From: Macrostomum lignano
Lineage: Eukaryota
Length of the DNA: 64,000 nucleotides
Assembly: GCA_002269645.1 (NCBI GenBank)
Contig: NIVC01002158.1
Span: 1 to 64,000 of the forward strand
Reading direction: 5' to 3'
Position numbers and translations under genes: made by a program. The notes below the pieces were generated by a model. The model worked only from the letters and a program-made list of their open reading frames with translations. It made no database searches and was not told where the DNA came from. Below are positions 1 through 35,670 of the stretch, piece by piece. How positions within the stretch are numbered: position 1 is the first letter of the stretch; every line of letters begins with the position of its first letter.

Positions 1-129
1 GTCTTCTTCTATCTATGCCTAAAAAATTGTTTATTCGACTTGTATTGTTTGTTGTACAAAACTTTTCTTTCAGAATTTTTAACAAAAAAAAATGTTATGT
101 ATATTACTTTCTTCATACCAACACCTGAC

Positions 130-992
130 ATCCTTCTCATGTTGTTCATCCAGGGAAATACCGCTCGATTTGCATCTTCATATAAGTCCGCAAAGCGTTC
201 ATCGATTTTGCCTTCTCTTCAATCGCCGATTTGTAGCGAAGCAGGGTTCCCATTGTGTAACTTGAAAATATTAGACCTGGTACATGATACAGAGAGAGTA
301 AAATTTGTCGTAGTCTCCCAACTGTTCGCTTTGCTGATGTTGAAAGTGGTGGCGAGCTCTTCCACATTCATTTTGTGCTTGTAGACCAAAACTTGAAATT
401 AAGCGCCCTGCCAAACTGCATCATGCCTTCCGCAGTTGACAGGTTCTCGAAGAATAGGTCAGCTTTCTAAAACCTCGCTTCCAAGTCTAACCTTTTCGTT
501 CCATTCAAATTCATGGCGAACCAAGTTGAAGACCTTCGAAATTGCACCCAGAGACAACATTACCCCGACTCTCATTCTCTTCAGCTTCGCGTATATCCTC
601 GCAATAACTCTCTCTCGCTCGCTCTCTTCCTTTTCTTGGAAGCGCCCTCTTCTTATCCGGAATACCTTCAAGCTTTCCAACTCTCTGAAACCTTACAACT
701 CTTCTTCTTTCCAGCTGCTCATCTGCTTCCCATTGCCACCTTTTTTAGATGACAGCGTGACCGCCAGTTCAGCAATCGTTGCAATTCTTGTCTCTTTGAC
801 ATGGCCATGATAAAAAGTATTCCTTTTATTGAAAAATTTCGGTTTGAACTTGCGGGGCGAGGTCCGGTGTGAATCGGTTGTTTTTATCACCTTTGGTGGT
901 ATAACGGTAGTACTCGGAAATCCCTGAATATTATCTATTCGATATCCAAAATATTCTAAATATTCCCTTCTAGAAGGGAAACCCGCATGCAT
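130..992 (-). pseudogene. Decayed ORF of about 290 codons, unknown product, inside element A
   Basis: Track ORFs 693..992 and 459..680 are in the same frame, separated by one TAA. The frame continues past further in-frame stops (..YKHKMNVEELATTFNISKANSW..). No family recognised. Confidence 0.4.
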
Positions 993-1110
993 GGGTTTTA
1001 TTTTTAGATCTTATCGTCTGCACTCTACAGGTACAACCTTTGTATTGCCCAGCATGTGGGTTTTATTTTTAGATCTTGCGTCTGCACTCTACAGGGGTAC
1101 AACCTTGTAC
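985..1110 (+). repeat. About 70-bp tandem duplication
   Basis: gggttttatttttagatctt..gtctgcactctacagg..tacaacct..gta occurs twice in tandem. Confidence 0.75.
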
Positions 1111-1125
1111 GAGCGTAGTTGCCAA

Positions 1126-1366
1126 CTACAACTGTCTTATGACTTCAGCAAAGTTATAGTAGCTGTCGTTAATCTTTTACATAGGTTACTCCATACTTAT
1201 GAAACCAGTGTCTTTGGAGAGCTAGATTAATATTAGGGACATTGATATGAACGTCGGGCCATATATTTTTTCATGTATTCGCTGCATTCAAGTTTGCATC
1301 GGTACTTGGATTTGTACAATGGATGAGGCTGAGTATAATAAGAACCTGGAAGACAACTGGAAACAT
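1126..1366 (-). pseudogene. Frameshifted homolog of the 79-aa ORF at 34154-34393
   Basis: Hand translation MFPVV.PGSYYTQPHPLYKSKYRCKLECSEYMKK..WPDVHINVPNINLALQRHWFHKYGVTYVKD.DSYYNFAEVIRQL* needs three 1-bp indels; it aligns end to end with the intact copy. Confidence 0.75.
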
Positions 1367-1808
1367 AGAGAAATTTAGATTTTTTCAAAGGAAGGACCCT
1401 GCGCTGATGCTTTAAAGTCTTAGGGATCTGGTCTCGGCGTTGCAAATTGAATGTGGAGAAGAATGCAGATTATTTTCTGATTGTCTCGAAGATGCTATGG
1501 TGGATTTGGAGCTGTTATGCTCAGAGCATAAACCCTCAGAGCATAACAGTAGGACACCTGTTATGCTCTGATTTCTGTCAGAGATAATATGGATGGATTT
1601 AATGTTATGGAGGACGTTTTGTGAGCGAGTGCGACCCCCCTTTTTTCTGATTCTGTCAGGGATAATATGGATGGATTTAATGGGATTATGGAGGACGTGA
1701 AAATATTTTGTCCCAGAAGCCCCCTCATGCCTTCTACTTTTTAATTCCATACTGTATTTTAGTCCTAAAAATCATCAAAATTCTTGCATTATTTGTTTAA
1801 TATTAACC

Positions 1809-2576
1809 ATGATAAAAAGCACGTTTTTTAAAGAAAAAAAAATTGTTATTCCAGCCAAGAGCTCGCTGCCTGGTTTGTCGAAAGACCTTCCGCAATGTGG
1901 CTGCGCTGCATGCTCACTCGCATGGAGAATGCTTTGCGCACAGATCGACTGTTGGAGGGGCCATTCGAGGAGCTTCAGGCGCACCCACCAGACGGTTGGT
2001 CTGTTCACCTGGAAAAAGTGCGCATCAGGGGCGAGCCAACTTTCTGCAGTTTGTTCCTAATTCCGCTGAATCTCCATCGCAAACATCCGCCACCACCGAC
2101 GACCTTCTACCTGCCGACAAGCTGAACCAGCTGCGCGCCCCAATCTATTGGCTTTTCAATATGACTTTACAAAAAGGACTGATGTTGAGAACATGTCTGC
2201 ATGTCAAGGTGAAGCTGTTTCGGATGCTGGCGGATTTGCGGCAACACCCCGATCTCTCAACAGGCGCTTTAAATTCACCAGCAACTGAAATAATCTCTGC
2301 ATATTTCAACAGTCACATGGTTACAATTTCACTGGATAAAGAGCACCGGTACTGGCGAACTGTCTGAGGAGAGTTTCAACGACTGGTTTATGCGTGCAAT
2401 CACCGAAGTGACAAGCAAAATTGACAGCTTCCAGAAACGTGGCAGTGGTTGGAAGTATGACAGCATTGAACAGCTTGACCTGATGCTATGCCCCTATAGG
2501 AAGTCTCGTTCTCGGCCAAGCTACAACCCGGGCAGTAGGAATTCCACAGCGGCAGAGCAACAGCTGGGCGGTGGTA

Positions 2577-2611
<35 letters not shown>

Positions 2612-5600
2612 GCCAGAACATTTAAAGTCCCGTTGTCGGTTGGATGCAAGAGAGGAGCCGTAATATTTTTGAAGCCAAACAATAATCGGCAGCCTAACTG
2701 CTTCAAGTATGCAATCGTAGCAAGCATCTTTTATGCCCAAGTGAAGCGTCCTCATTTGAAGAGCAGCTATACAGAACATTTGCGAGAATTGGATTTTGGA
2801 ACTAAATTACAAGTCGGATCAGCGAGACATGCCAAATGCTCATATATTAAATTTTTGAACAAAAATCCAGGGTTAAGTTTGCGTGTATTCGTTTGGGATT
2901 ACGAAGCAAAGACTGCCGTGCATTACTTTTCGCGCCACTGTTCCCCGGAGACAGCCCGCTTCATGGCAAACTGTTTGTTCATCCCACCATATGGCAAATT
3001 CAAGCTGGGCCACTACATGCCTGTTCGTAATTTGAACTCACTTCTAAGCTGCCGAGGCAAACGACGGCGTGTCTGCCCAACTTGCCTGGCTCCGTTTTCG
3101 GAAAAAATATCATTTCATTCTGAACGAGCACCAATGCATCGAGGGTGCGAGAGCCAGTCCTCGCTCCGCTGGATGTCCGAGCCGCTGCCACAAATACGGG
3201 AGGTGCGCAGGCCGCCAATTGAGAAGATGCCTCTGCCGGAGAATGCTAGTCTTGAGTTTACCGAACATGCTGCAAGGCTGCCGGCGCTGTACGTAGTTTA
3301 TGCCGACATGGAATGCCTATGTGCACCGCCGGACGCCAGCGCTCCACATGTGGGAGCCTCTCAAAGATTCGCGAGATCCACAAACCGCTTTGCATCGGTT
3401 ATCGGGTGGTGGCCTGTCCCGGAGTTGAAAGCCGGCTGCCTTCACTATATGGCGAAAGGTCCGCCTGTTCGGTTATCTATTCGCGGCCCAACGGTGGAGA
3501 TGATTGCATTGGCTGTTTTTGATCAAGCTCCGCCAGCTAGCAAGCGAGATCTACCGACACGCCAAGGATGAAACATATGTTCCTTTGCTTAAAAAATATC
3601 TTCATCTGACGGACCGTGTCGAGAAGCGGCGCCACAAGCATTGTCAGCTATGTAATCGCGTTTTTGAGCTTGATGAACGCCAAGTCCTGGATCACGATCA
3701 TCTTACTGGCCTGCCTAGGGGAGTTTTGTGTGTCAGCTGCAATCGCAAATTGAGCTTGAATCGCCACCGGCTGTTGTCTATTTTCACAACCTGTCGGCAT
3801 ATGATGGCAAGTTTATTGTTCGCCAAGTTTACGAAACCTTTTCCGGTGAAGAAGTTAAACTTTATGTTTTGCCTGAAAATCGCGAGCGATTCAAAACGTT
3901 CTCTATCAAGTTCAAGCTGCCTGCTGCTGATGGCAGCACCACGTTTGGTTTGAAATCTGCTTCAAGGACACTTTTGCGTATTTACCAACTAGCCTAGCAA
4001 GTCTAGCTGAACGCCTGCTCCCTTCTCAGCTGGTGCACACAAGCAAACTATTGGAGCAATACCCGAGACTACGACCGGAGACGTTGCAGCAGAAGGGAGT
4101 TTTTCCCTATTCGTTCCTTGATCGAATGGACAAATTGGACAGCGTAAAATCTCTGCCAGCAAAGGAGAGGTTTTTCAATAGACTAACAATGCAGCATTGC
4201 TCTGACGCCGACTACGCTCGAGCCAAGGCCAGCTGGGAGGAATTCGGCTGCCACACTCTGCGTGACTACACTACTGCCTACCTGCGATTGGATGTGCTTT
4301 TGCTCTGCGACGTGTTTGAAAATTTCAGAAATAATGCAATCAAAGAGTATCAAATTGATCCCGCTCATTTTCTTGGCTCTCCAATGTACAGCCTGGCGGC
4401 GTGCTTGCTTCAACTTGCAGAGCCAATTCAACTCTTCACTGATACAGCCATGTATGCTGAAATTGAGAGCTCTGTGCGCGGCGGTTTCAGCTTTGGGACA
4501 CGTCACGTAACCACAGCAAATAACTCGTTGGTTTCGCTCATTCGTCAAGATTTGGACAGGGACGAGGGCAACTTTGCGAGCCTGAGGGCAAATGCACCAG
4601 AAAACACCTTTTTGGTTTACTTGGATGCAAACTCGCTCTATTCTAGTTGCATGGTACAACCTCTACCATACAAGAACTTTCGTTGGCTTTCTGCTCGAGA
4701 TGTGAATCGCATACCATGCGATAACACCCCGGCGCAGGCTATTACCTCGAAAATCCGCAAGTGAAGAGTCAAATGCTAGACTGGCTGACGAAGTTTTGTT
4801 CTGAGGAGCGAGGAGCTTATTTCACAGTCGATCTGCATTATCCCGAGTTTCTACACGATAGCACTGCTGACCTCCCACTGGCGATTGGGCACGAGATTGT
4901 GAGAGAAGATCGGCTGACGGATCAAATGCGGCAAGATTGGACAGCACTTCAACGACAACTGAACCCCGAGCGATATGCCTCTGCCAGCTGTTACCAAGAC
5001 GTGAAGGCATTCAAGAGCCCTGCGCGCAAGCTCATCGGTTCTGTCGAGCACAAGCGCGAATATGTGTTGCACCACCGTGCATTGCGACTTTACCTCGAGT
5101 TGGGGATGCGAGTCACAAGGGTCTATCGCGTCATCTGTTTCACCGAGAAGCCAATATTACGCTCTTACATTGAGCGCAACATTAGCCGACGAATAGAAGC
5201 CAAGACGGAATTTGAACGTGATCTGTTCAAGCTACTCAACAATGCTTTGTTTGGCAAGTTTCTGCAACGTGTTCGTGACCGATTGTGCTTCAAGATGTGC
5301 ACCGACGCTGCAAAGCTGGAGTCCTATGTCAGCATGGAAAGCTTCCTAGATGTTATCATTTACAACGAGAATTTGGCGGGAGTTAGTCTATCTCCTCGTC
5401 AAGTTTTGCTTAACAAGCCAATTATCATTGGCGCGTCAATTCTGGACATTGCCAAAACTATGGTTTACAATTTTTATTACAACCATGTTCAGGCTCATCA
5501 TTCGCTTTCATGTGCACGCGTTCTGGCAGGCGACACCGACAGTCTGATGATGGCACTGGTGATGCGCAGACCTGGTGACACGCCCTATAATTCATTGTTC

Positions 5601-6077
5601 AAGGACCTGATCGCTCAAGGACTACTTGATACCAGCAACTATCCGCCGGATCATGCCCTTTATTCTACCCAACACAAGGGTCGGCTGCTTGCATGGAAAG
5701 ACGAATTTGCTGGAGCGGTTCCAATCGAGTTGGTATTTTTACGACCAAAGAACTACTCTTTTCTCTACGTTACCGATACGATTCGGCAACTCTCTCGATG
5801 CAAAGGCGTGAGCAAGCAAGTGGCTCGCACGTTCAAGCACACGGCCTACCTCTCGGTCTTGGAGAAGAGAAGAGTGATGTATGCAAGCTTCGCTCGAATT
5901 GCTTCTAAGAAGAAAGTTGTTTTTCTCATGGAACAGAAGAAGCTCGCGCTCGGATTTTTTGATACAAAGCGCGCTTGGACAACCCTCCTTGCTTCTCAAC
6001 CATTCGGACATTGGCGGCTGCGAGCAGCATGCGAAACGCAGGCAAGAATTACTTTCTTGATACTGTTTAGCATCTAG
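1809..6077 (+). pseudogene. polB: Protein-primed family B DNA polymerase (pPolB), broken by at least 7 frameshifts in its first 3 kb (real decay or assembly error)
   Basis: N-terminal C2H2 (CLVCRKTF..H..H), GSGW, endonuclease VII-like (C..C..DHDHLTG..RG..C..CN), ExoII FHNLSAYDGKF, QKGVFPY, ExoIII DVLLLCDVFENFR, motif A DANSLY, motif B KLLNNALFGK, motif C GDTDS, KNYS, CKGV. A possible GC-AG intron 6042-6128 would extend the CDS to 6176. Confidence 0.95.
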
Positions 6078-6359
6078 ATGATACAGTAGCATCTTTAGCT
6101 TAATATTTTTTCGTTTTTTTAATTTCAGGCAACAATCGATTCGGAAAAGGAGGACTATTCGATGGATGAAAATTGACTTTTGCTTTGTACATTAACACCA
6201 TATATGCCAGGCATCGTGTGTAGACTAGTCATCATTTTAGCATGGTGTCCTATCTCTTGAGGTTCACTCATTTTCGTTGGCTGACACAGCGCTCTAGAAT
6301 AAATGTGTATTGAATGACTAACGAACGTGATTGGTTTTTCGCTCCTTCTTTTGCAAGAG

Positions 6360-6367
6360 TATATAAG
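6360..6367 (+). promoter_or_regulatory. TATA box upstream of the dUTPase gene
   Basis: TATATAAG about 40 bp before ATG 6407, preceded by gattgg (reverse CCAAT) and following an AATAAA near 6299. Confidence 0.5.
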
Positions 6368-6406
6368 CCCAGATGTTGAGACTTTAGTTTAACTTTTGTC
6401 CGAAAA

Positions 6407-7276
6407 ATGCAGTCGTCCTCTTCGCCTAGCCAACCGAGTTTAAGAAGTAGGAAAAGCCAATTATCGAAACTGTTCATTTCGCCATATACACAAACGAGTG
6501 GTTTGTGCAATTTCCCAGTCCCGCCACCAACTCCCACTCCCGAGAATGCAAACAAAAAATTTATTTTCAATGTTTCAGCCAGTACAATGCAGCGCCAGCA
6601 GCAAGAATCTCTAAATCCAAGTGACACTAGCAGCTGTAAAGACGCAGCGCCAGTTCCGCTACGCCTAAATCCCGATTGGTGTCAACAATACCTCGCAGGC
6701 TCACCACCGATCGAGAAAAATCTAATTGTCCGCCTTCTCAGCAATCATGCTGCGGTTCCGGCCAGACAGACAGAGGGCTCTATCGGGTATGATCTGACTG
6801 CAGCCGAGACCAAGACCGTCCCTGCGCAGGGACGAGCGATTTTTGATATTGGGATTTCAGTCCGAGTACCGGCTGGCACCTATGGAAGAATCGCTGGGCG
6901 CTCTGGTCTGTCAGCGTTTCACGGAATCACGGTGGGCGGCGGAGTAATTGACCCAGACTACTGCGGACGAATTACGGTGATTCTCTTCAACCACGGCATA
7001 CGAGACTATCATGTTCGCATCGGCGAAAGGATTGCGCAGCTGGTTCTGGAGAAGGCGGAAATCGCTCCGGTCAAGGTAGAGAACTACACTATCGCTCGCG
7101 GGAAGAAGCGTGAAGCGCTGGACAACCAGCGTCAGTTGTCAGCGTCAGCATCGTCAGTTGCGGAGACCGCCAAGGTTGATGAAGAAGAGAAGATGAAGAA
7201 TCTGGCGGACGCAATCGTTCAACAAGAAGCTTGCAAGCAGCGGGGCGATTCAGGCTTTGGCAGCACGGGGATGTAA
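6407..7276 (+). CDS. dut: Trimeric dUTPase with N-terminal extension and a charged insert before motif V
   Basis: Motifs GYDL, GRSGL, GVIDPDYCG, ERIAQL and RGDSGFGSTG in order. Confidence 0.95.
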   Translation: MQSSSSPSQPSLRSRKSQLSKLFISPYTQTSGLCNFPVPPPTPTPENANKKFIFNVSASTMQRQQQESLNPSDTSSCKDAAPVPLRLNPDWCQQYLAGSPPIEKNLIVRLLSNHAAVPARQTEGSIGYDLTAAETKTVPAQGRAIFDIGISVRVPAGTYGRIAGRSGLSAFHGITVGGGVIDPDYCGRITVILFNHGIRDYHVRIGERIAQLVLEKAEIAPVKVENYTIARGKKREALDNQRQLSASASSVAETAKVDEEEKMKNLADAIVQQEACKQRGDSGFGSTGM

Positions 7277-7341
7277 AGATTGCAGGTTTAAATTGCGCGC
7301 AAGAGCGGTAGTATCTGGAAATTACTGCAGTTCATTCTTTT

Positions 7342-7556
7342 TTCAAGAATAAACAATTCTGCATGCATATAAAGACTATAAGTTATGCTCCAAAATTGCA
7401 AGGAACAAATATATCTGTATCTGAATCCTTAACGCATATAAGCTATCTTTTATTCAAGAATAAACAATTCTGCATGCATATAAAGACTATAAGTTATGCT
7501 CCAAAATTGCAAGGAACAAATATATCTGTATCTGAATCCTTAACGCATATAAGCTA
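7342..7556 (+). repeat. 111-bp-period tandem duplication between dut and PLA2
   Basis: ttcaagaataaacaattctgcatgcatataaagac..gcatataagcta starts at both 7342 and 7453. Confidence 0.9.
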
Positions 7557-7607
7557 AACTAAATTATTTGCTATTGGTTTTCAAGTCTTTACTATTTAAG
7601 CAACAAA

Positions 7608-8101
7608 ATGTACGCATCAAAACGCAGAAAAGGTGTCTGCAAGCAAAAGAGGAAATCTGTCCCGAATCGGAAATCGCGCTCTAGCAAACGTGTTCAGAGA
7701 GGATCTGGGATTGTAAACTGGTTAATCAATCACCTACCATTTGAGGTCCACCTCCCTGGTTACAATTTTTGTGGACCGTAAGTGAGCCAAACTTTTTCAT
7801 GATTTAGTTTGACACTGTTCTAACTAGGAAGTATTAAATTCGCTCTTAATTAAGGGGCACGCGGTTGCGAAAACGGCTTGCGGAAGGACAGCGAGGGAAA
7901 AACCGGTTGGATGATCTTTGCCTACTACATGATGTTGCATACGAAAAGAGCTCGGACACAAACTCTCGTCTGGAAGCTGATCGGTTGTTAGAAGCCGGAG
8001 CTAGAGAGATTATAAGCGATCCGAATACTGGGTGGGGAGAACGCCTTGCTTCAAAATTCGTGGCTAAGGTGATGCACGCTAAGCAGCGATTGGCAGCCTG
8101 A
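7608..8101 (+). CDS. Parvovirus-VP1-type phospholipase A2 virion protein, spliced (exons 7608-7777 and 7855-8101; 138 aa)
   Basis: Joining CC|gtaagt..ctaac..taag|G restores HLPGYNFCGPGTRLRKRL..NRLDDLCLLHDVAY (Ca loop plus HDxxY). Basic N-terminus followed by VQRGSG. Confidence 0.9.
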
Positions 8102-8107
8102 ACACAA

Positions 8108-8815
8108 ATGGAAACTTTCAATCTGCAGTTGGCACACGATTCCTCAATCATCTTGGCCGGACCATCAAACTCTGGCAAAACTGAATGGGCGCTGCGTTTG
8201 CTGCGCGAACGAAATTTGTTATTTAAGCAAGCGCCAACGCGTCTCGTGTGGTGTCATGGCACGGACCTGAGTCCTGGTGAACAGCACCGCATTCGTTCAA
8301 GCTGGGAGGAGGGCGGGAGCGGGCAGCATAATTTGATTCGAGGATTTCCGCTCGAGCTTATCTCTCAACTTCGCCCACACGATTTGCTGGTTGTCGATGA
8401 TCTCCAGAGTGAAATGGCCAAGTCCCCCGAATTTACAGCAATTTTTACAAAATATGCCCACCACACACCACTAACTTGTCTCTATTTATGTCAGAATCTC
8501 TTTCATCGTTCTGATGCTGAAGCGCGCTCGCGAAGCCTCTCTGCTAGCTACATCTGCCTGACCCGAAATATTCGCGATCGAACGGTTGTTCAAAGCCTAG
8601 GGAAGCAAATGTTTCCAAAGAGGAGCAACTTTCTAGTTCGTGTCTATGAAAACGCAACTGACAATAGGCCCTATTCATACCTGTTTATTGATCTGCGACA
8701 AGAAACTCCCGACTTTTTAAGGCTTCGTACTGGTATTTTCCCGGGTGACAAACAGCTTGCGTACACCTCTGGTAAAAGCAACTCTGTTTCACTTGATTTT
8801 ATAAGCAATCCATAG
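8108..8815 (+). CDS. FtsK/A32-like genome packaging ATPase
   Basis: Walker A GPSNSGKT, Walker B LLVVDD, QNLF, and C-terminal PYSYLFIDL..LRLRTGIF typical of Mavericks. Confidence 0.93.
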   Translation: METFNLQLAHDSSIILAGPSNSGKTEWALRLLRERNLLFKQAPTRLVWCHGTDLSPGEQHRIRSSWEEGGSGQHNLIRGFPLELISQLRPHDLLVVDDLQSEMAKSPEFTAIFTKYAHHTPLTCLYLCQNLFHRSDAEARSRSLSASYICLTRNIRDRTVVQSLGKQMFPKRSNFLVRVYENATDNRPYSYLFIDLRQETPDFLRLRTGIFPGDKQLAYTSGKSNSVSLDFISNP

Positions 8816-8848
8816 ATTGCACTTTGCTCCTTTGTAGAAATTTTGAAA

Positions 8849-9838
8849 ATGAGTTTTTATGTGTTTTTGCCTTCGAATGACAAGAGTTATGCAGATAATT
8901 CACCCAGCGAGTTTCGAGTCCGGCTAAAGGATCCACTGAATGTTGGAACGCGCTATGAAGTAGCACTGGTTGAGCTAATCTGCGGAGGGTTTCCTGCTTC
9001 GGCTGCAAAGGACTCTTCGTTAGATAAAAAGGAAATTGTCTACTATCAAAGAGACGTGCAAACGTATTTTTCTTCAACAGCACCTCGATTTGTGAAGTTG
9101 TGGTCCCAAGCAAACTTGGAGGCATATCTTTTGTGGAGGCAAGCGGAGGCGGGCTCGGGAGCAAAAATCACATATCAGTGGTTCCTGCGAAACGGTGGTA
9201 GCCGATCGGTTCATGTGGAAATTCCAATGACGTTTCTCAGTACATTTGCCCTAGACGAGTGGGTTGTGGTTCGAGCGGGGATAGGCAATGAAGAAGGTGA
9301 ATGGAGTGAGGCTTCTCTACGGACTTTGGAAGAGGTTTCAGCGAAGATGGATAGATTGAACGATAAGTATACTATGATTTTTAATTTTGTTCTGGACCCA
9401 TATCATGCTGTGAAATTTTTGGGCGATGGAGAACGCATGAAATCTCTACAAAGTGGTTCAGTGGACGACGCTCTGAAAAAAAATGTTTGGAAGCTTGTGC
9501 ACCCGTGGACATTTACCATACAATATTTGCCTGGTGAGCCGTCCGGTGCTGGGGACGACAATAGCAAGCAGTATATGCATTGCTACACTGACATCATCGA
9601 CTATCAGCCCGTTGGAAGCACATCTGTTCCACTGTTGCGCGTCGTGGATTTGCAGCGGAAGGGACACGAAGTAACGCATGAACATAGTTCCTTGACAAAT
9701 CCTTACTATGTTGGAGTGAATCGTCAGGGCATCAGCGAGATTTCAATTCGACTGACTGATCAGCGTGGCAAAGGAATACAATTTCAACCGGGCTCGCATA
9801 CTGTGGCGGTGCTCCATTTTCGTCCTAGAATTGACTAG
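8849..9838 (+). CDS. Minor capsid protein (penton, PX)
   Basis: SFYVFLPSN..NSPSEFRVRL..YEVALVE at the N-terminus; YTDIIDYQPVG..PLLRVV, PYYV and IRLTDQRG..VLHFR at the C-terminus. Confidence 0.9.
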   Translation: MSFYVFLPSNDKSYADNSPSEFRVRLKDPLNVGTRYEVALVELICGGFPASAAKDSSLDKKEIVYYQRDVQTYFSSTAPRFVKLWSQANLEAYLLWRQAEAGSGAKITYQWFLRNGGSRSVHVEIPMTFLSTFALDEWVVVRAGIGNEEGEWSEASLRTLEEVSAKMDRLNDKYTMIFNFVLDPYHAVKFLGDGERMKSLQSGSVDDALKKNVWKLVHPWTFTIQYLPGEPSGAGDDNSKQYMHCYTDIIDYQPVGSTSVPLLRVVDLQRKGHEVTHEHSSLTNPYYVGVNRQGISEISIRLTDQRGKGIQFQPGSHTVAVLHFRPRID

Positions 9839-9895
9839 GTGACTAATTTATAAGCAAACTTTGGGGTGTTGAGTATGATTTGACCAATAATTTAA

Positions 9896-20100: not shown

Positions 20101-23100
20101 GGCCGTGCGGACTTCCACGGTCGTCGGGACTGCCGGGTCTCCGATGGTGACCACAGCGGCCGCCCCGCCAGCCTCGGAGCCGCCGGCCGCCGAACCGTCG
20201 CAGTATATGACGAGCTCAGCCGGGTGAGACCGGATGACGTCAAGAGCGGCAAGACAGCGCTCCAACGGGGGCGTGGTGGCCGGAGGCAAAGGATTGTCAG
20301 CTAGGATCGCCGGGAGATGTTGGTCCAGCCAGGGGCATGGAAAGGCCGGTGTGAGCGGCAAACGCGGCGTGAGATCAATGCCAAGGCCATTGGCGAGCTG
20401 AGCCGAGCGGAGTCTCCAGCTACTTCGGGCGAGCCGGTGTTGCACGGTGCCCGAGAGGGCGATGGCGCGAGGATGGTCGTTGGGCAGCCTGAGCGCGCGT
20501 TCTCTGGCGATGAGGCAAAGGCGGTCGCTGGTGTTCCTGTAGCTGCCGATGCCGGCCTCCAGGTGCACAGCGTCAAGCGGCGCCGAGCGGTGCAAGCCCG
20601 TGACGATTCTGAGGGCCTGGTTTTGCGCGCGCTCAAGGCGTTCGAAGGAGGAGCTGGAAAGCCAAGGTTGCCAAGCCGGGGCCGCGTAGTTAAGAAGGCT
20701 CTGCTGCATAGCCAGGTAGACGCCGCGAAGGCGCTCCTTGCGCCAACCCCAGTCCCGAGCCGCGAGGCAGGACAGCATGCGGCAGCGGGACAGGACTCTG
20801 CTGCAGATGTCGTTGACGTGCGCGTTAAAGCTGAGCGTACGGTCCAGGGTAATGCCTAGGAGTCTAGGAGTGCTACAGTGCCGAACTTGGGAATGCACAA
20901 TGAAGTTTGTTGCTGCTCTGGCCGGTGCTGCTTCATTTCAGCAAATGCACTGTAATGGCCAACACAGCAAGCCCAAGTTTTTTGTTCAAACAGCTGGTAA
21001 TGGGCTAAACTGCTTTCTACTGCTTTTCGCGTCAGATTAGTTTTGGGACTTCTATTTTTCGAAAATTTTGTTGTCTGGATAGAGAGTCCAAATCCTTTTC
21101 ATTGACAACTCCTGGATAAACTTTTTCGCTAACTGAAACACACTATTTTTGCTATTAGGGGTCCTGGCCGTGTAAAAGACAGACTAGAGCAAATTATCCC
21201 AAACTTCCTGAGACTAGAGAATCTCATCAATATCTTTTGGTGAGCTCGTTGAAAATAATGACAGTAGCCTCCTGATTCACTGAAGCCAGCCGAGAGCCCG
21301 AAACGCCAATAAGGCGGGAAAGGTCAATGTAGAGCATTGCAGTCATGGCGCAACTGAAAGTTAACATTCCTTTAATTAGCCGAGAAGCTAACCTTTCAAT
21401 TCATCTTTTGTCATTTGAAAGCTTATGAGTCAACTAGCATTTCAATATAAGATTCACAAAATCTGCTACCTCTCTCGTCACACAACATTAGTTGACTCAA
21501 AACTGCCGCTCACCGATCCAGAAGTCAGTGCCGTCACCGAACCCAGTCTCGTACTCAGTCCAGTTTCGTTGGAAACTCACTCTGCCCGTAAGTCGCTGCT
21601 GAATCTTCAGGAAGCAGCGACCGTCTGGCTGCAGTTGAACCGCACTGGAAGAGTTCGCTGTGCGTTGAGCAGAGGCGCATTGCAGCCTGGCGCAGGACTG
21701 CAGACTGAAGCAGCTGTCGCTTACAGGCGGTTTCATTCTCCATGATGAAGTGATTTGGCTGGACTTGGAGAGGCACTGCTCAGCAACCAGCGACGTCACC
21801 CGCCACTGCACGTGTCGCCACAGGTCAGCGGGCTCCGCCAGCACAGCAGCCCTGGAAGTCGTCAATTACTTTTTTAACGGCACTGTGCTACGAAGGAATG
21901 AAACAGAAAAAGTCAGAGCAAGTTTTTAAAGCCAATAATGCCTAGGTATATAATTTTAGAATGTAATGATGCCGCAGAAATTCAATTATTTTACGCTCGT
22001 ATAAACTTTACAACTGTGCAATGTGTGCTTATGCGATATTTACGTCAGAAATTCGAGCCAGCTAAAACTTACCCAATCAAATATCCTCTGCTTCCAAACT
22101 CATGCTAAAAAAGTATTTTTGTCTCCCTAAAACTGTAAGAAGCAGTCCAGAAAAGAGCAGCTCAAAAGCAGCACTAAAGTTTTTGATTACGGTGAACGAA
22201 TTGTCAGACCTTCTGCCACATGTCTTAGAAAATGTCAGCCAACCTGAGATCGCGGCACTCCGTCCAGTTTCCGCAGTACAGCCGCAGCCGAGCGGACCTC
22301 CAGTCTGTCGACGCCATCAGCGGACCGACCTCGAACCGAGCACTCAACGAAGAGCTCACCGATCTCTCAGCAGTCCACAGTCGCATGAAGTCGACCGAGC
22401 GAGGCGACAAGTCGGCCAACTGAGTCCTCAAAGCATCGCGTGTGGCCTCATCTTGCAGCACCAGATCCAGCTTCAGGTAGTGCATGTCTCGGCTGTAGTC
22501 ATACCTGACTGACTCGCTGCTCAAGCTGGAGATGTTGTGGCACAGCAGAGGCTCAATGAGGAAGTGGCCCTTGATGTCGAGTCTCTGGTGCACTCGGACA
22601 GAGCAGTTCTCGAGTTTGACGTACCGACTGAACCGCATTTGTCGGCATGCGGGTAAGAATTTTTTCCTGTACAAGCCGACTTCGATGAAGCTGTCGTTTT
22701 GCAGCATGATGCGGCTCTGAACCTCATGGAAACAGCCATTCAACAGAAGAGTAGCTGAGAGTTTTACATTTTTTAGAGTCTCGATTGTTGAATTTTCAAT
22801 TTTATTTCGTCTGCTTATATGAGTGTTTGGTAACAGAAAAACTTTGGTCAATTGGTCGATATTCGCCAGTCCCAGCATGCTTGCTCGTAGATTTAGGGCT
22901 TCATATGTGATCTTCTCTCCGAAGCCGAGTCTCAGAGTGGCTACTGACTCATTTGGAGTCCACGGGAAGCCCAAAACCCGAACCGATGAGCGGGTGTCGG
23001 CTGAGACGCTGATGTTGGTCACCGTGGCGAAGCTCACAGACCTCGGTGACAGATGCCGCAGTTGACGCTTAGCCTCTGCAAGCATCCCAGCATCCTTCAT

Positions 23101-23385
23101 CAATACAGGAACGCTGAAGTAGAGCTGCTGGGTGATGAAGTCGAATCGGGGAACAATGCCTCTCAGGCTGTCTGTCACGCACACGAGCGGCTCGACTGCC
23201 AAGTGCGGACCGTCGCTCGCTCCCGTGTCGTGCACGAACAGCGCGCAGCCGTTCACGCTGAGCTGCGCCACGAAGCGGAGCCGCGGAGAGTCAGCGGGAG
23301 CGCACTGGGAGACCTGGCGGCCGGCTGCCAGCGAGCAGAGCAGCAGAGCCAACGCTGCAGAAACTCGCAACTGAAAGAGCTGCAT
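17161..23385 (-). CDS. Secreted fibrinogen-related-domain (FReD) protein, 3 exons (23385-22244, 21851-21514, 17576-17161; 631 aa)
   Basis: Signal peptide MQLFQLRVSAALALLLCSLAAG. Phase-compatible GT-AG junctions give IQQR..SFQRNWTEYETGFG..FWIG|LSAIH..LRVEM..FSTMDRDND..C..GGWWFKDC..N. Confidence 0.88.
18253..18916 (+). mobile_element. Possible Crypton/DUF3504-like fragment in FReD intron 2
   Basis: ENQCQSTIAKELASVGRFEKFL..DIAKFVRYFYAGLRK resembles the Crypton N-terminal F..F(Y)..R motif; no catalytic recombinase part is seen. Confidence 0.35.
19391..20907 (-). mobile_element. 5'-truncated I-group LINE with RNase H, (CAA)n tail and 12-bp TSD
   Basis: ORF 19405..20898: LGITLD, RIVTG..AP, RNase H (YCDGS, EELRA, SDSQS, WVPGHVGIPVNELAD), C..C..EH..C. 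TSD tgttgctgctct at 19379-19390 and 20908-20919. Confidence 0.92.
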
Positions 23386-29520: not shown

Positions 29521-31375
29521 AATAGTTTCAATATAAGGCAGGTTTCTAGCCTGTAATGTTTTTCGTGCTTTTGTGCCACAATAAAGTTCTGTCATGACTT
29601 TATTTCAATAAACTTTCATTTATTCAGCTTAATAATTTAATGCATACTATGCGACGCTGGGAGCCCGACACTGCCAACGGGGCGAACTTCGTCTGTTCTT
29701 AAGATTTGGGACGCGCCATCTGACATGTCCTGCTCTAACTGTGACTTGCATGCTGGGCTGCGTACTTTGTTGTTGTTGCTGTTGTTTGTTGGATTCGAGC
29801 GTCGTACGAAAAATTACTTGTTTGTAACATGACATCCAATTCAGCGCAGAGCCTACAGAGGAATACTTACACATATAAAATATAAATACAGATTTTTAAG
29901 ATGAAGGCATACAATTTTCGAAAAGCTGGAAAAGATGTAAGAAAAAGTTTAGCTATTCATTTACAGAGCCACCAACCAACGAACGTTATTACGAGTAATT
30001 GTACGGCCTAAATGACACTCTTATGGCAGTTGATAAGACCTGATTCAGTTCCTGACGCACACCAATTGACAAGCCACTCACCGATCCAGAAGTCAGTGCC
30101 GTCACCGAACCCAGTCTCGTACTCAGTCCAGTTTCGTTGGAAACTCACTCTGTCAGTAAGTCGCTGCTGAAACTTCACGAAGCAGCGACCGTCTGGCTGC
30201 AGTTGAACCGCACTGGAAGAGTTCGCTGTGCGTTGAGCAGAGGCGCATTGCAGCCTGGCGCAGGACTTCAGACTGTAGCAGCTATCGCTTACAAGCGGTT
30301 TCATTCTCCATGATGAAGTGATTTGGCTGGACTTGGAGATGCACTGCTCAGCAACCAGCGATGTCACCCGCCACTGCACGTGTCGCCACAGGTCAGCGGG
30401 CTTCGCCAGCACAGCATTCCTGGAAGTCGTCAATTACTTGTTTAAACGGCACAGGGCTACGAAGGAATGAAAAAAAACAAAAATACAAATGAGCACGCAT
30501 TTAAAATAACAAACAAGTATTTCGAATGCATCCAAAATCTCGAAATTTTGGTACGCGAATACTGTTTGGTTGACGATTGAGCCAGAAATGCCATGTCTTT
30601 CAGAAGAGACATCGTCCCTGATAAGACGTGCAACAGATGTGACACATTAAAAGTCACATTTGTTAACTTTTAAACGTTGCCACCGTGACGAAGTTCACAG
30701 ACCTCGGTGACAGATGCCGCAGTTGACGCTGAGCCTCTGCAAGCATCCCAGCATCCTTCATCAATATCGGAACGCTGAAGTACAGCTGTTGGGTGATGAA
30801 GTCGAATCGGGGAACAATGCCTTTCAGGCTGTCTGTCACGCACATGAGCGGCTCGACTGCCAAATGCAGACCGTCGCTCGCTCCCGTGTCGTGCACGAAC
30901 AGCGCGCAGCCGTTCACGCTGAGCTGCGCCACAAAGCGGAGCCGCGGAGAGTCAGCGGGAGCGCACTGGGAGACCTGGCCGGCTGCCAGCGAGCAGAGCA
31001 GCAGAGCCAACGCTAGTAGAATGCATGAAGGGGCTTCTGGGACATGCAGTAAAGTTTAAATAATTTTTTATGGGTGAGAAAAATGGAAGCGATTGCTGAA
31101 AGCTAAATAATATTCTTTCTCACTCCAAGGAGAGCATTCCTATTCCAATAACTGGGCGAATTAATGACTCAAACGGGATATTTGTTCAAAAATTAGAGCA
31201 GGAGATTCACCTGGATCCAGGTGCTAATTACCATGTCTATCTTAACGACTTCACTGGTTGGTCAAACGTTCCCAATGGGACAGCAGCAAGTAATAAGTTT
31301 TATTACAAATGGAAAGGTGCGGCAGCAGAACCTGTGGTATTCCCTGTGAGCACGCAAAGTGTGGATACCTACAAT

Positions 31376-33578
31376 TGATATAACCGCCCTTGTCGCCTGT
31401 CCGCTCCGTAGAGAGACGAACGCATGACTAGAGGGGGCAATGACCGTAGGCTGCCTATGACCGGGCAACGACCTGACGGACCTCCAGCACCAGACTGTCC
31501 CGCCCACATGATTAGTAGCTTTTGGTAGCGCTTCGTGACCAGAGGGCCAAGGACCCACATAGACCCCACCTGTAGCCAAGGTGCAATAGTTGGTCACTCG
31601 GTCATGGTATGACCGAGTCGCTGCCACCACTCTGTGACCTGGCGCACCTGGATCTTTCTACCAGACCTCTCGAGGCTAGAGCCCCGTCTGGATTGGTTAC
31701 CAGGGGATTTAGGCTAACAGGGGAGACGCATGCAGCCGAGTACAGGGACTCTGCTTGGGGCATGATCGGGAACTCTGGGCTCAATCCTGGAGGATTTCTC
31801 AGCAGGGGATCCTTTGTGGCTGTGAGCGAGGCTGACTTGCGACTTTGATTACTAAGAGTAGTATGAGGCGAACATGTACTGTCTCCAGTTTAGATTGCTC
31901 AGGGCGAAGGGACGCGTTAGCATGGGGTTGCAACCTTCCTACTGCCATTCTGTGCCAAGACTCGCTAATCCCTCTACTGCACGCACACGCGGCCCCGCAG
32001 CACGCACTCACAGGCGGGCTTTGCACGGGGAGAGGCCATTAGCTTACCCAAACTCCCTTATGCTTTGCCACCCCGGGAGAAAGGCTTAGCAAGCCATGAG
32101 TTAAATGATGGTGAAAGATTGAATAATGATGAAGTTAGTTAATAGTTAATAATTAGGCCCTTAGGCGAATAATCAGGCAATTAGGCGGCTTCACTATTGA
32201 GTAAAATACAGCAAAAGATACGGTATCACAATTGGCTCAGCTCTCTAATCAGACAATGGAAAATAGGCAAACCCCGGATAAGCAAAGGCAATTAGAGCAC
32301 AAATTAGTAACAGGAACTTACCGGCAGCTGCACAGAGAGAGAGAGAGAGGCGGAGTGACCGAGGGTGGCTGTAGGCTGCAGTCAGGCAGAAAGTAAAGCG
32401 GCGATGCGCTGGAGCGGCGAGGCGCTGATGTAGATCAGGCGATGCTGATGATGCTGGGCGGTATCAGACCGCTGGCCGATAGGCGAGCTCGCTTGGGGAG
32501 CTAAGGATAACTTGACGGTAACAGACCGCGGACCGGCAGGGATTCGTCTAATAGACGAAAGGGCAAGTCTAAAGAAAGACTAGGAGCCCGAAGGTGGGCA
32601 GAAGTTTTGGATTCTCATGCCGAAATCGCTTCCTTTTATAGACCTCACAGCCGCCTCCTCAAGGTCGTTACCATGGCTCCCTCTCTCTGATTGGCTGCCG
32701 GCAGAATGACGTCAGAATGAGTCATGATGAGAAGCATGAGACCGGCATAGCAACATGAGAAATGGGGAAATTGCGCAATCCGGAGGTGGAGTGGGGGGAT
32801 AATTGGCGCAGCGGGTGGTCGCGAAAGTGTTGCGCAAGCAAACATTGAGAACAATAGGGCTGGGGTCGAGAACAAAGGAATTGGAAATCGGGGATAATTG
32901 GGGAAAACTGAGAACAATGGAAAAGTAAACATTGGAGAAAAGGTGATAATTAGGTGCGAAAACGAGAACAAAAGAAAGAGAAAATCGGAGAAAATGTGAT
33001 AATTGGTGGGGGTCGAGAGAACAAAAGAATAAAAAACGAGAACAATAGAAGCGGAGGTGGGGTGGGTGTCGCATGAGAAATTTGGGGAGGAGAACAATGG
33101 CATGAGAAAAGGTTGCGCAAGAGAGGGGGGATGAGTCATCGATGAGTCATCGGGGGGAAGAAGGGGTCACACGACTTGCGTCACCGTTTGGGAGTTTGGG
33201 AGGGGATGGGGAGACGGTGAGCACACAAAATAATGTAAGTAGACACAGAGAAGGAGGGGACAGCGCAGGAAAAGAGTGCAGAGAGAGACAAAAAGAGGGG
33301 GGAAAGGGAAAGTACAAGAAGAATAGGGTGGAGTGCAGGGGAGATAAGGTAGAGGGGAGGGTACAGAGAGGGACAGGGAGTTCCGGAAAGGCAGGTGTGG
33401 CGGCAGGGGAGACGGAACCAAGGCAGTAGGAGGGGGGGGGGCAGCAGAGCGGGAGTCTCCAGGCCTGGGCGGAGACCTGGCCGAGTCTCGACAGCTCTGT
33501 GCAGAGGGTACACGGGATAGGAGGCACTTTCGAAAAAGTTCCCATGCCCTATCCCGCGACCAGAGCGTGGTTACATCA
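31376..33578 (-). mobile_element. 2203-bp TG..CA insertion (long solo LTR or Ginger-like non-autonomous element)
   Basis: Termini TGATATAACC / GGTTACATCA (9/10 inverted), 4-bp TSD caat (31372-31375, 33579-33582); no recognisable ORF. Confidence 0.85.
32633..32724 (-). promoter_or_regulatory. Pol II promoter cluster inside the TG..CA insertion
   Basis: On the minus strand: TGAGTCA site (32718-32724), TGACGTCA (32707-32714), CCAAT (about 32690), TATAAAAG (32633-32640), then a gtaagt donor at 32321. Confidence 0.6.
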
Positions 33579-34153
33579 CAATAACTTTCTGGAAAACGTC
33601 TTTACTAAAAGAGGCCATTTTGAGACACCTGATCTGATTCAGCCAGAACTGTTCCCTGTCAAACTAGCCTATGATCTCACTGTAATGAGAGTGGTCATGC
33701 AAGTTCACAAAGATGCGGAGGTTGAGTTTAAAGATGACACTTGGTATAGGGAATTGGGATTCGAGAAGAAAGTTTATAAGGCAGAATCCACGGCGCGGAC
33801 CGCCACTCAAGCGTCGGGGACTGTTAGCATGGCCCGGGAAAGTGTAAGCGGTTTGTTCTTAGCACCCAATATTGCAGACATTGTAAAGGGTTTGAATATT
33901 CTAATCAGAAGTAATCTCAGTCTTGATTGGGTATTTAAGGGAAAGCGAACGAATATTTTGTACAACATCTCCAACTCTGTAGCTGGAGGACAGATGCTGG
34001 TAGAGAAACCAAATCCAGTGAAAAGAGTTGTATTGAGTAATAAGGAGATTCACGAGATTGTGCTACAGTTTGAGACTGAAGATGGGGTGGGTGTTGATTT
34101 CAACGGTGAAGGGTTTGTATTGACGTTGATCATTGAGAGAATGTGAGAAGAAA

Positions 34154-34393
34154 TTACAATTGCCTAATGATTTCTGCAAAGTTATAGTAGCTGTCGTAAT
34201 CTTTTACGTAGGTTACTCCATACTTAAGAAACCAGTGGCTTTGGAGAGCTAGATTAATATTAGGGACATTTATTGTGTGGTCGGGCCAACATTTTCTCAT
34301 GTACTCACTGCATTCTAGTTTGCATTGGTATTTACTCTTGTAATTAGGCTCGTGCGCTTTGTAATAAGAACCTGGAGAGACAACTGGAAGCAT
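34154..34393 (-). CDS. 79-aa Tyr/Cys-rich hypothetical protein of the mini-Polinton family
   Basis: aaaaATG context, intact ORF, and a homolog at 1126-1366 differing by many synonymous codons. Confidence 0.75.
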   Translation of the reverse strand: MLPVVSPGSYYKAHEPNYKSKYQCKLECSEYMRKCWPDHTINVPNINLALQSHWFLKYGVTYVKDYDSYYNFAEIIRQL

Positions 34394-35670
34394 TTTTATT
34401 AAGAATTTAGTTTTTTTCGGAGGATGAGCACCCTGCGCTGAGGATCTGGTTTCTCGTTGCAAATTGAATGTGGGGAGAAGAATGCAGATTATCTTCTGAT
34501 TGTTTCGAAGATGCTATGGGTGGATGTCAGTGGATTATGTAGGACACCTGTTAGCTCGTATGCTCTGATTCTGTCAGGGATAATATGGATGGATTTAGGA
34601 GGATTATGTTTTCGGAGTTTTCGGATCAAGTGCTCCCCCTCTTTTTCCTGATTCTGTCGGGGATGATTATGGATGGATTTAATGGGATTATGGAGGACGT
34701 TAAAAATTGTCCCAGAAGCCCCCTCATGCATTCTAACGCTGCAGAAACTCGCAACTGAAAAAGCTGCAAGGCTTTAGATGCAAGTGTAAGGCCTGAATGT
34801 CTTTAAACTTTATATTGCTTTGATTTGCACAATGGAATTCTGATGCGTCTCGCAGTGTGTGGACGCAGCCAAGTCAGAAGCGATGTGGGCTGTGAGCTGC
34901 ACCGGCTTATGTAGAGCTCGCACTGGGTGGGGGCATGCCGTCCAATAGTGAAAGTCGCAATGGCGTGAGTTCGTTTCAAACCTGAGCAGGGTGCATCCGA
35001 ACCCCCAGCTGGACTGGCGAGCTGTTAAGTGCCGGTGCACTCGTGCTGCACCAGTTGATGTCCCCACAAGGCACGGCTTTGCCTCCGCGCGCAGTAAAAA
35101 TTGAATTTCTGCGCGCGTGACCGCAGGTCGCAGCATTTAATTTTTGCATACAAGCTTTTTGCAACTCGTAATCAGACCGTTTACAAAATCTTGGAGACAA
35201 TTTCGCAGATTTGTAAGTCATCACGTGGTTTAATTTAACGGACCTTCAACGTGTTGTTTTTATTGTCAGAACTGAGCATAGTGTAAAAAAATTAGAAAGC
35301 CTAATAGAAAGAAAGGAATTCAAAGCATTTAATGTACTCAGTCTATAGCCCAATTGAGCTCCTGAGTACAAACCCTAGGACTGTTTCCTCTTTCCAACCT
35401 TACCTGAGCTCAGACTCAGGCCTCCTCTCCAAGACCCAACCGACCTTCCCGTCGCTTCTCTCCCCTCTTTTTTCTATTGTACAGCCTTGCTGCCAGCTAT
35501 TTTCTCTCCCCTCCCGATGCCGTGAAATTCCTGGAGCAGTTCCTCACCAAGGCCACAAGCGAGTTATAATATGCAATAGTTTGTACAAGCCTCGCATTGT
35601 TCGTAGCTGCAAGCAGAATAGACTTCCTAGCTCAGCGTCTGCTTCAATCAGCAACAAACTCTTGGCCAAG

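What the first reader, a model, noticed from the sequence alone, without database searches (positions are those of the whole stretch)
1126..1738. Shared end-module (TIR + subterminal repeats + conserved 79-aa ORF) attached to different cargo in two elements
Seen: 1126-1738 and 34154-34734 are homologous, and homology stops at the stop codon of the small ORF. Beyond it, element C has a convergent penton while element A has an unrelated decayed ORF in the same orientation as the small ORF. By hand alignment the two small ORFs differ at about 13 synonymous codons (e.g. Ser agt/tcc, Leu cta/ctt, Glu gag/gaa, Arg agg/aga, plus stop taa/tag) and about 14 replacement codons. Neutral drift would give clearly more replacement than synonymous changes. 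Inference: a real, previously selected protein (MLPVVSPGSYY..CKLECSEY..HWFLKYGVTYVKDYDSYYNF) marks a family of Polinton-ended elements with interchangeable cargo, as expected for a segmented or satellite system. I do not recognise the protein.
Basis: partly seen in the sequence, partly recalled or inferred. Interest (0 to 1): 0.8.

Follow-up and report, generated by a model that had tools for sequence, protein, structure and literature searches.

The report
Small gene inside Polinton end repeats
The shared piece is the end of one abundant virus-like transposon (a Polinton) family and carries a new, conserved 79-amino-acid gene that is likely copied between the element's two ends; the two elements here are a full-size copy and a one-off deletion, not segments of a split virus.

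Summary
The homology is real, and the 79-aa ORF is a real gene: variants shared between copies give pN/pS 0.16-0.19, singletons 0.74. The module is the ~620-bp end of a 15-20 kb Polinton family with 297 exact tips in the genome. It often forms the whole terminal inverted repeat, ending at the ORF's stop codon in 13 of 23 two-ended elements. Element A is a full-size Polinton: the same insertion on another contig has the core genes and the penton, then a 2.3-kb accessory block with an intact helix-turn-helix-like ORF. The 'decay' seen in the window is probably assembly error. Element C is a deletion derivative at one insertion site. What remains new is a protein with no homologue found, concerted evolution of the two ends, and target-site-bounded palindromic derivatives that carry only capsid or only replication genes; all five derivative junctions tested were found at one site each. 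The scan had not seen this protein, but noted palindromic Polinton derivatives in other genomes.

The parts
1..1738 (.). Penton-side end of element A, a full-size Polinton; the contig starts inside it
   Evidence: Same insertion on C4948 (continuous 97% alignment over window 1-3644) continues through penton, MCP, ATPase, protease, pPolB and integrase
1..992 (-). Accessory gene of A, predicted helix-turn-helix protein; frameshifted in this assembly, intact in sister copies
   Evidence: 347-aa ORF in C4948, 353 aa in C221; Pfam HTH_DeoR E 0.018, below cut-off; model residues ~129-183 match DeoR/SorC/ParB HTHs at Z 5.7-6.3, a weak level; window indels absent from short-read contigs
1126..1366 (-). 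ORF79 copy of A, with frameshifting indels in this assembly
   Evidence: 0 mismatches and 3 gaps against the unbroken C4948 copy
1367..1738 (-). Conserved ~120-bp block upstream of ORF79, subterminal ~80-bp repeats and the terminal tip (AGTAG on the minus strand)
   Evidence: Repeat cores at 1568/1647 and 1589/1667; tip pattern has 297 exact matches in the genome, 0 for the control
31009..31014 (+). Left 6-bp target-site duplication of C (AACGCT); right copy at 34735-34740
   Evidence: the interrupted host repeat is uninterrupted at 23020-23384
31015..34734 (+). Element C, internal-deletion derivative of the family (about 1.5 kb without its later insertion)
   Evidence: C1165 allele covers positions 13902-15421 of the complete C1 element at 91%; junction found 3 times, all with the same flank
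31015..31044 (+). 30-bp left tip joined to the last codons of the MCP gene with a 2-bp microhomology
   Evidence: Comparison with the complete C1 element
31083..34146 (+). Penton-like (minor capsid) gene, broken and split by the insertion
   Evidence: 285-287 aa in complete elements, directly after the MCP; named by position and recalled motifs, no library match
31376..33578 (.). 2.2-kb TG...CA insertion with 4-bp duplication (CAAT), solo-LTR-like; absent from the other two copies of this site
   Evidence: and the sequence itself
34154..34393 (-). Intact ORF79 of C
34394..34734 (-). Upstream block, subterminal repeats and right tip of C (last 3 nt of the tip missing)

Best explanation
The module is the end of one young, high-copy Polinton family: a terminal tip, a repeat array, a conserved upstream block and a selected 79-aa gene that is likely copied from one end to the other during protein-primed replication and likely acts as an early regulator. 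Shown: complete 15-20 kb elements with 6-bp duplications carry it at the penton end, the integrase end or both. The two ends of one element are more alike than ends of different elements. A is such an element with an extra accessory gene between penton and end; C is a deletion of one. Inferred: displaced single strands pair at their ends (panhandle), and fill-in copies a variable stretch from one end onto the other. This would explain repeats from ~250 bp to over 6 kb and the palindromic derivatives. Repeats stop at the stop codon so often probably because breakpoints inside the gene are lost and sequence beyond it is free to change. Deleted or fold-back genomes keep both tips and would be integrated by an integrase supplied in trans. 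For the protein I commit to a small soluble helical regulator, expressed first from the end and acting on the element's own transcription or on host silencing (about 0.4, from position only).
For: Copy number: 150 scored of 606 candidates; 297 tips. Complete element C1:1410497-1425919 with 622-bp repeats at 97.9% and duplication TATCTA. Ten two-tip elements of 14.7-18.9 kb, which I picked for full-size tip spacing, all have PLA2-integrase-pPolB-protease-ATPase-penton (MCP in 9 of 10) and at least one ORF79: 5 both ends, 4 penton end only, 1 integrase end only; 6 of 10 have perfect 6-bp duplications. Selection: among 109 distinct ungapped copies, shared single-base variants are 42 synonymous and 31 replacement, singletons 16 and 52; pairwise dN/dS 0.21-0.29; ML omega 0.35; penton control 0.26. 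Concerted ends: within-element ORF identity median 0.979 (n=23) versus 0.903 between elements (n=1012); 10 of 23 versus 3 of 1012 at 99% or more; in several elements the outer half is more alike than the inner half. A-type at three or more sites; C221 is complete, 20.4 kb, duplication GTCACC. C at one site.
Against: The two ends are not always alike (C221 0.81, C1518 0.87, C110 0.89), so recombination between elements also shapes the ends. 12 of 30 tip-chosen ends have no ORF79 within 1.5 kb, so it is not a fixed part of the repeat. The 23 pairs are not fully independent (C211 and C3895 share a site) and most were found through the ORF itself. No replication intermediate, transcript or protein activity was seen. 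The regulator role has no homology or fold support.
Confidence: 0.85

Rival explanations
1. A segmented or satellite system: capsid-only and replication-only elements with common ends complement each other and propagate as stable types.
For: Target-site-bounded derivatives exist that lack whole modules: C276 (11.2 kb) and C1584 (8.5 kb) carry capsid genes and ATPase without pPolB or integrase; C975 (11.5 kb) is a palindrome of PLA2, integrase and most of pPolB; C827 and C are small.
Against: Complete elements are common. Each junction tested was found at one insertion site: C (3 contigs, same flank; whole-genome pattern count), C276 type (3 contigs, same flanks), C1584, C827 and C975 (1 match each, but only 40 of 495, 215 and 515 candidates were scored). 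A itself has the full gene set.
Confidence: 0.07
2. End-to-end likeness and mosaic ends come from ectopic recombination or gene conversion between integrated copies in the chromosome, not from extrachromosomal replication.
For: Hundreds of near-identical copies (40 of 40 scored pPolB stretches 98-100% identical); mismatched ends and imperfect duplications in 4 of 10 elements.
Against: Rearranged elements with long arms have direct 6-bp duplications (C276, C1584, C2140, C975, C827), which fits integration after rearrangement. In C2140 a retroelement-like insert is present in both 6.2-kb arms at 99.9%.
Confidence: 0.2
3. ORF79 is a minor virion or packaging protein, not a regulator; its place at the end is incidental.
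For: In many copies it abuts the penton (74 of 140 inner flanks) and it is as constrained as the penton.
Against: It is transcribed opposite to the penton, from the end inward, and occurs at the integrase end alone in C70.
Confidence: 0.25
4. The ORF is not a gene; the conservation is DNA-level constraint on an origin or structured RNA.
For: No homologue, family or fold was found.
Against: The constraint is frame-specific: shared-variant pN/pS is 0.87-3.58 in four other frames and 0.31-0.37 only in one antisense frame with 8 stop columns; third positions are about twice as variable.
Confidence: 0.03

Closest known systems
Polintons/Mavericks of animals (Barreat and Katzourakis 2021, PMC8097293; passages read)
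   Same: [quoted passage not shown]
   Different: A whole selected gene lies inside the repeat and is often present twice; the passages seen do not describe this. Repeat length varies from ~250 bp to over 6 kb within one family.
Adintoviruses with PLA2X (Starrett et al. 2021, PMC8502044; passages read)
   Same: PLA2-like gene beside the integrase, pPolB, protease, ATPase and capsid genes.
   Different: Alpha/Beta class not tested here; ORF79 and the HTH-like accessory family match no library family.
Nematode Mavericks with cargo genes (bioRxiv 10.1101/2022.07.12.499685; passages read)
   Same: A variable 2-5 kb slot just inside the repeat holds exchangeable genes.
   Different: Here the slot occurs at either end, and its best-studied occupant is an intronless family found in Polinton-like contexts, not a shown host capture; no horizontal transfer was tested.
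Fragmented virophages/PLVs that keep repeats and duplications (bioRxiv 10.64898/2026.07.28.741278; passages read)
   Same: Derivatives lacking core genes but bounded by repeats and duplications, read as dependent on complete copies.
   Different: Here several are long-armed palindromes with only the capsid or only the replication module.
Adenovirus panhandle replication and end repair; bipartite bidnaviruses (both recalled, not checked in a paper)
   Same: Protein-primed replication with end pairing would give the tip-inward homogenisation; bidnavirus segments share ends.
   Different: No evidence for stable segments here; complete genomes dominate.

Membership tests
Polinton/Maverick | Protein-primed family B polymerase | tested here: met
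   Pfam DNA_pol_B_2 E 2.9e-5 on a 343-aa piece, under the curated cut-off; about 34% identity to the polymerase region of the window's other Polinton; present in A's sister C4948
Polinton/Maverick | Retroviral-like integrase | tested here: met
   Pfam rve E 1.2e-9 and 5.4e-10
Polinton/Maverick | Packaging ATPase and adenovirus-like protease | tested here: met
   Pox_A32 E 7.5e-7; Peptidase_C5 E 0.0023, under cut-off
Polinton/Maverick | Double-jelly-roll major capsid protein | tested here: met
   Pfam DJR-like E 3.1e-5, under cut-off
Polinton/Maverick | Minor capsid protein (penton) | tested here: inconclusive
   285-287 aa gene after the MCP; no Pfam or PDB sequence match; named by position and recalled motifs
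Polinton/Maverick | Terminal inverted repeats, AGT-type ends, 6-bp duplication | tested here: met
   C1, C221 and 6 of 10 tip-chosen elements have perfect duplications; C has AACGCT
Segmented or satellite system | Segments share ends | tested here: met
   All derivatives examined carry the family tips
Segmented or satellite system | Essential genes split among segments, no complete genome | tested here: not met
   Complete elements are common and A is one
Segmented or satellite system | Each segment type propagates (several independent sites) | tested here: not met
   0 of 5 junction types found at more than one site; three of these searches scored only 40 candidates
Segmented or satellite system | Separate packaging of segments in particles | not testable with these tools
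   No particle data
Non-autonomous (MITE-like) Polinton family, for element C | Amplification in trans to many sites | tested here: not met
   Junction in 3 contigs with identical flank
Helix-turn-helix DNA-binding proteins, for A's accessory gene | HTH fold | tested here: inconclusive
   Pfam HTH hits E 0.018-0.12; Z 5.7-6.3, rmsd 1.6-1.8 A over about 50 residues for the DeoR/SorC rows; no Foldseek hit at E <= 0.001

The most novel reading that the evidence does not exclude
This genome preserves a germline record of defective-interfering, copy-back Polinton genomes. Fold-back replication makes capsid-only and replication-only palindromes that keep both origins and a double dose of an end-encoded regulator (ORF79), and helpers integrate them. 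This would be an early step toward a bipartite, bidnavirus-like virus, with ORF79 as an unrecognised origin-linked control gene.
Probability: 0.1. Interest if true: 0.7.

Novelty: new variant of a known kind. Interest (0 to 1): 0.32.

Why it matters
Polinton replication has been modelled but, as far as I recall, not observed. A young family with hundreds of copies, a selected gene inside its end repeat and tip-inward homogenisation of the ends lets the end-pairing model be tested from sequence alone. It also adds an uncharacterised 79-aa protein and a fast-diverging HTH-like accessory family to the Polinton gene list. The headline claim of a segmented system does not hold, so the value is moderate.

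Tried and rejected
ORF79 homologue searches were empty: 5.8-billion-protein word search at near length and longer lengths with the alignment; HMMER over 1.84 billion representatives gave 2 hits at E 6e-4 and 1e-3, both repetitive proteins that I rejected; Pfam, PHROGs, PDB sequences, viral and metagenome contigs, ESM Atlas (best 0.77 and 0.89, leads only); a profile over all held loci and the window found only pieces of the family. The AlphaFold model is weak (pLDDT 56, three or four helices) and matched nothing (Foldseek viral best E 0.68; VIA best Z 3.9), which does not show the fold is new. A recalled likeness to RFX/D5-type winged helices got no support from these scans. Expression: no RNA holder listed; the runs marked RNA are guesses, so nothing is concluded. 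No Rfam family and no unusual hairpin upstream of the ORF (z -0.86). Tandem Repeats Finder found no array at 900-1800; the subterminal repeats rest. One search was aimed beside the C975 junction and only shows many near-identical pPolB copies; one search is the junction test. Literature: Polinton + defective interfering + satellite, 0 papers; Macrostomum + Polinton, 1 unrelated paper; Polinton + 'within the TIR' + ORF, 7 papers, 5 listed, 2 read in passages, neither describing a gene duplicated in a Polinton repeat; seen as listings. Kapitonov and Jurka 2006 is not held; its model is cited only through. No supplements were opened; those of PMC8097293 may list ORFs in repeats.

Full report
Observation. 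Window 1124-1736 aligns with 34152-34735 at 76% identity, and the alignment ends 2 nt past the stop codon of the small ORF. Both stretches hold a 30-bp tip, ~80-bp subterminal repeats and the ORF. C spans 31015-34734 with a 6-bp duplication, AACGCT. The ORF is open in C (34154-34393). In the window's A it is frameshifted: it differs from the same insertion on contig C4948 by 0 substitutions and 3 gaps.

The module is the end of one large Polinton family. The 79-aa protein gave 606 candidates in the 764-Mb genome, 150 scored at 84-100% identity, many as inverted pairs about 15 kb apart. The tip pattern has 297 exact matches and the control none. C1:1410497-1425919 is a complete element with 622-bp repeats at 97.9%, an ORF79 in each, duplication TATCTA, and PLA2, integrase, pPolB, protease, ATPase, MCP and a penton-like gene between. 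I picked ten two-tip elements of full-size spacing (14.7-18.9 kb) from the first 100 listed tips. All ten have this gene order (MCP not detected in one), and all have ORF79: five at both ends, four at the penton end only, one at the integrase end only; six have perfect duplications. Of 30 ends chosen by tip alone, 18 have ORF79 (one partial) within 1.5 kb and 12 do not. The gene is therefore a terminal gene that is often, not always, inside the repeat. The nearest named proteins to A's accessory gene are labelled Macrostomum lignano.

Element A. C4948 holds the same insertion (97% continuous alignment across the tip into the flank) and runs 14.6 kb leftward through penton, MCP, ATPase, protease, pPolB and part of the integrase before its contig ends. 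A 2.3-kb block lies between penton and end. The same block occurs at two more sites (C3267; C221/C3782), and C221 is complete at 20.4 kb with duplication GTCACC. The 'decayed ORF' is 347 aa in C4948 and 353 aa in C221. Short-read contigs of four runs lack four of the window's indels in it at full depth; the window begins at base 1 of its contig, so assembly error is likely. The gene belongs to a divergent family (113 matches among 136 scored, down to about 25% identity) that also sits just inside the integrase end of C110 and C298 and the penton end of C87, and in contexts with no match to this family. Its model (pLDDT 69) has a helix-turn-helix-like part matching DeoR/SorC/ParB at weak Z 5.7-6.3; Foldseek found nothing at E <= 0.001.

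Element C. Its left 30 bp join the last codons of the MCP gene through a 2-bp microhomology. The C1165 copy, 1.5 kb, covers positions 13902-15421 of the C1 element at 91%. The junction occurs three times in the genome, always with the same flank: one insertion. A 2.2-kb TG...CA insertion splits the penton in the window's copy only.

Selection. Of 140 distinct copies held, 120 were ungapped and 20 were left out for indels or truncation; 109 sequences were distinct, 7 with an internal stop. Against each column's commonest codon, single-base variants seen once were 16 synonymous and 52 replacement (pN/pS 0.74); seen 2-3 times, 16 and 13 (0.19); seen 4 or more times, 26 and 18 (0.16). Multi-base codon differences were not in these ratios (shared: 1 synonymous, 16 replacement; including them gives about 0.25). 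Pairwise dN/dS was 0.21-0.29 in all four divergence bins, and ML omega on 102 stop-free sequences was 0.35. Four other frames gave 0.87-3.58 for shared variants; one antisense frame with 8 stop columns gave 0.31-0.37. The penton's last 149 codons gave 0.26 shared and 0.50 singleton (60 sequences). The binomial P of 1.5e-13 ignores transition bias and relatedness. Synonymous excess covers all six segments of the ORF, weakest at codons 37-60.

Ends and derivatives. In 23 two-ended elements the ORF copies of one element are 97.9% identical (median) against 90.3% between elements; 10 of 23 versus 3 of 1012 pairs reach 99%. The repeat ends within -3 to +5 nt of the stop in 13 of 23 and runs 62 to over 2400 nt further in 10. 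Some pairs are unlike (C221 0.81, C1518 0.87), and at least two of the 23 are the same insertion. Inner flanks fall into 17 clusters, 74 of 140 being the penton. Derivatives with their own 6-bp duplications include long-armed palindromes without pPolB or integrase (C276, C1584, C2140), a palindrome of the replication side (C975), and minis of 0.7-3.8 kb. The C276 type is one site on three contigs; the junctions of C1584, C827 and C975 matched once each, with only 40 candidates scored per search.

Mechanism. Shown: terminal gene, selection, concerted ends, single-site derivatives. Inferred from established protein-primed replication (model cited through; adenovirus end repair recalled): end pairing of displaced strands copies a variable stretch from one end to the other, fold-back gives palindromes, and helper integrase inserts defective genomes. 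The protein's job is inferred from position alone: an early, soluble, helical regulator (about 0.4); a minor virion protein is the main rival (0.25). An 880-bp mini element without the gene (L190) shows it is not needed in cis.

Comparison. Vertebrate Mavericks have repeats of 46-1,447 bp, 6-bp duplications and accessory regions flanking the core (PMC8097293, passages). PLA2X marks some adintoviruses (PMC8502044, passages). Nematode Mavericks carry cargo beside the repeat (10.1101/2022.07.12.499685, passages). Fragmented elements that keep repeats and duplications are described in a protist (10.64898/2026.07.28.741278, passages). PMC3014272, PMC11414722, PMC11296320 and PMC6431247 were read in passages and added only general repeat lengths and background. 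I found no description of a gene duplicated inside a Polinton repeat in searches, which cover open papers only. The scan's notes hold no look-alike of this protein and nothing on this genome; they list palindromic Polinton derivatives and repeats reaching into genes in other genomes (unchecked).

Verdict. Observation partly confirmed, selection confirmed, segmented or satellite reading not supported. New variant of a known kind; interest 0.32.

Noticed in passing
window 1790-15300: A second, unrelated Polinton (pPolB, dUTPase-like ORF, ATPase, integrase, MCP, protease) starts just beyond A's tip; its polymerase region is only about 34% identical to the ORF79 family and no inverted repeat was found between the ends sampled.
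   Followed up: partly
L037-L038 (G000:C2140:107247-122715): 15.5-kb palindromic derivative with 6.2-kb arms at 99.9%; a tyrosine-recombinase retroelement-like insert is present in both arms, suggesting that an integrated copy was re-replicated with its passenger.
   Followed up: partly
L031-L032, L178, L182-L183: Target-site-bounded palindromes with only capsid-side genes (C276, C1584) or only replication-side genes (C975).
   Followed up: yes
L211 (G000:C124:22982-23697), L190 (G000:C32): MITE-size derivatives: 716 bp with a broken ORF79 and duplication ACCAGC; about 880 bp without ORF79. A 640-bp tip pair on C289 was not examined.
   Followed up: partly
L082, L084 (G000:C1157, C1638): A gene 88% identical to A's accessory gene sits beside a protease-like ORF of a different element; C1157 adds an ORF79 without a tip. 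This suggests exchange of the accessory gene between element families.
   Followed up: partly
L196, L255-L256 (G000:C66, C298), L023: A divergent capsid module (penton 79%, MCP 81-82% protein identity) is joined to a replication module 87-99% identical to the main family: module recombination within the family.
   Followed up: no
L193, L197, L186, L206, L049: Other unrecognised ORFs occupy the slot inside the end (142 aa, about 93-107 aa, 207 aa, 113 aa); those scanned had no convincing Pfam or PHROG match.
   Followed up: partly
window 31376-33578: 2.2-kb solo-LTR-like insertion (TG...CA, 4-bp duplication) present in one of three copies of the C site.
   Followed up: partly
window 21505-23384 and 30073-31014, 34735-34768: A duplicated host segment with fibrinogen-like ORF pieces (name recalled, not scanned); element C interrupts one copy.
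   Followed up: no
window 19405-20778, 26491-29042: An RNase H-bearing non-LTR retroelement fragment and a gypsy-like gag-pol remnant, judged by eye from translations.
   Followed up: no
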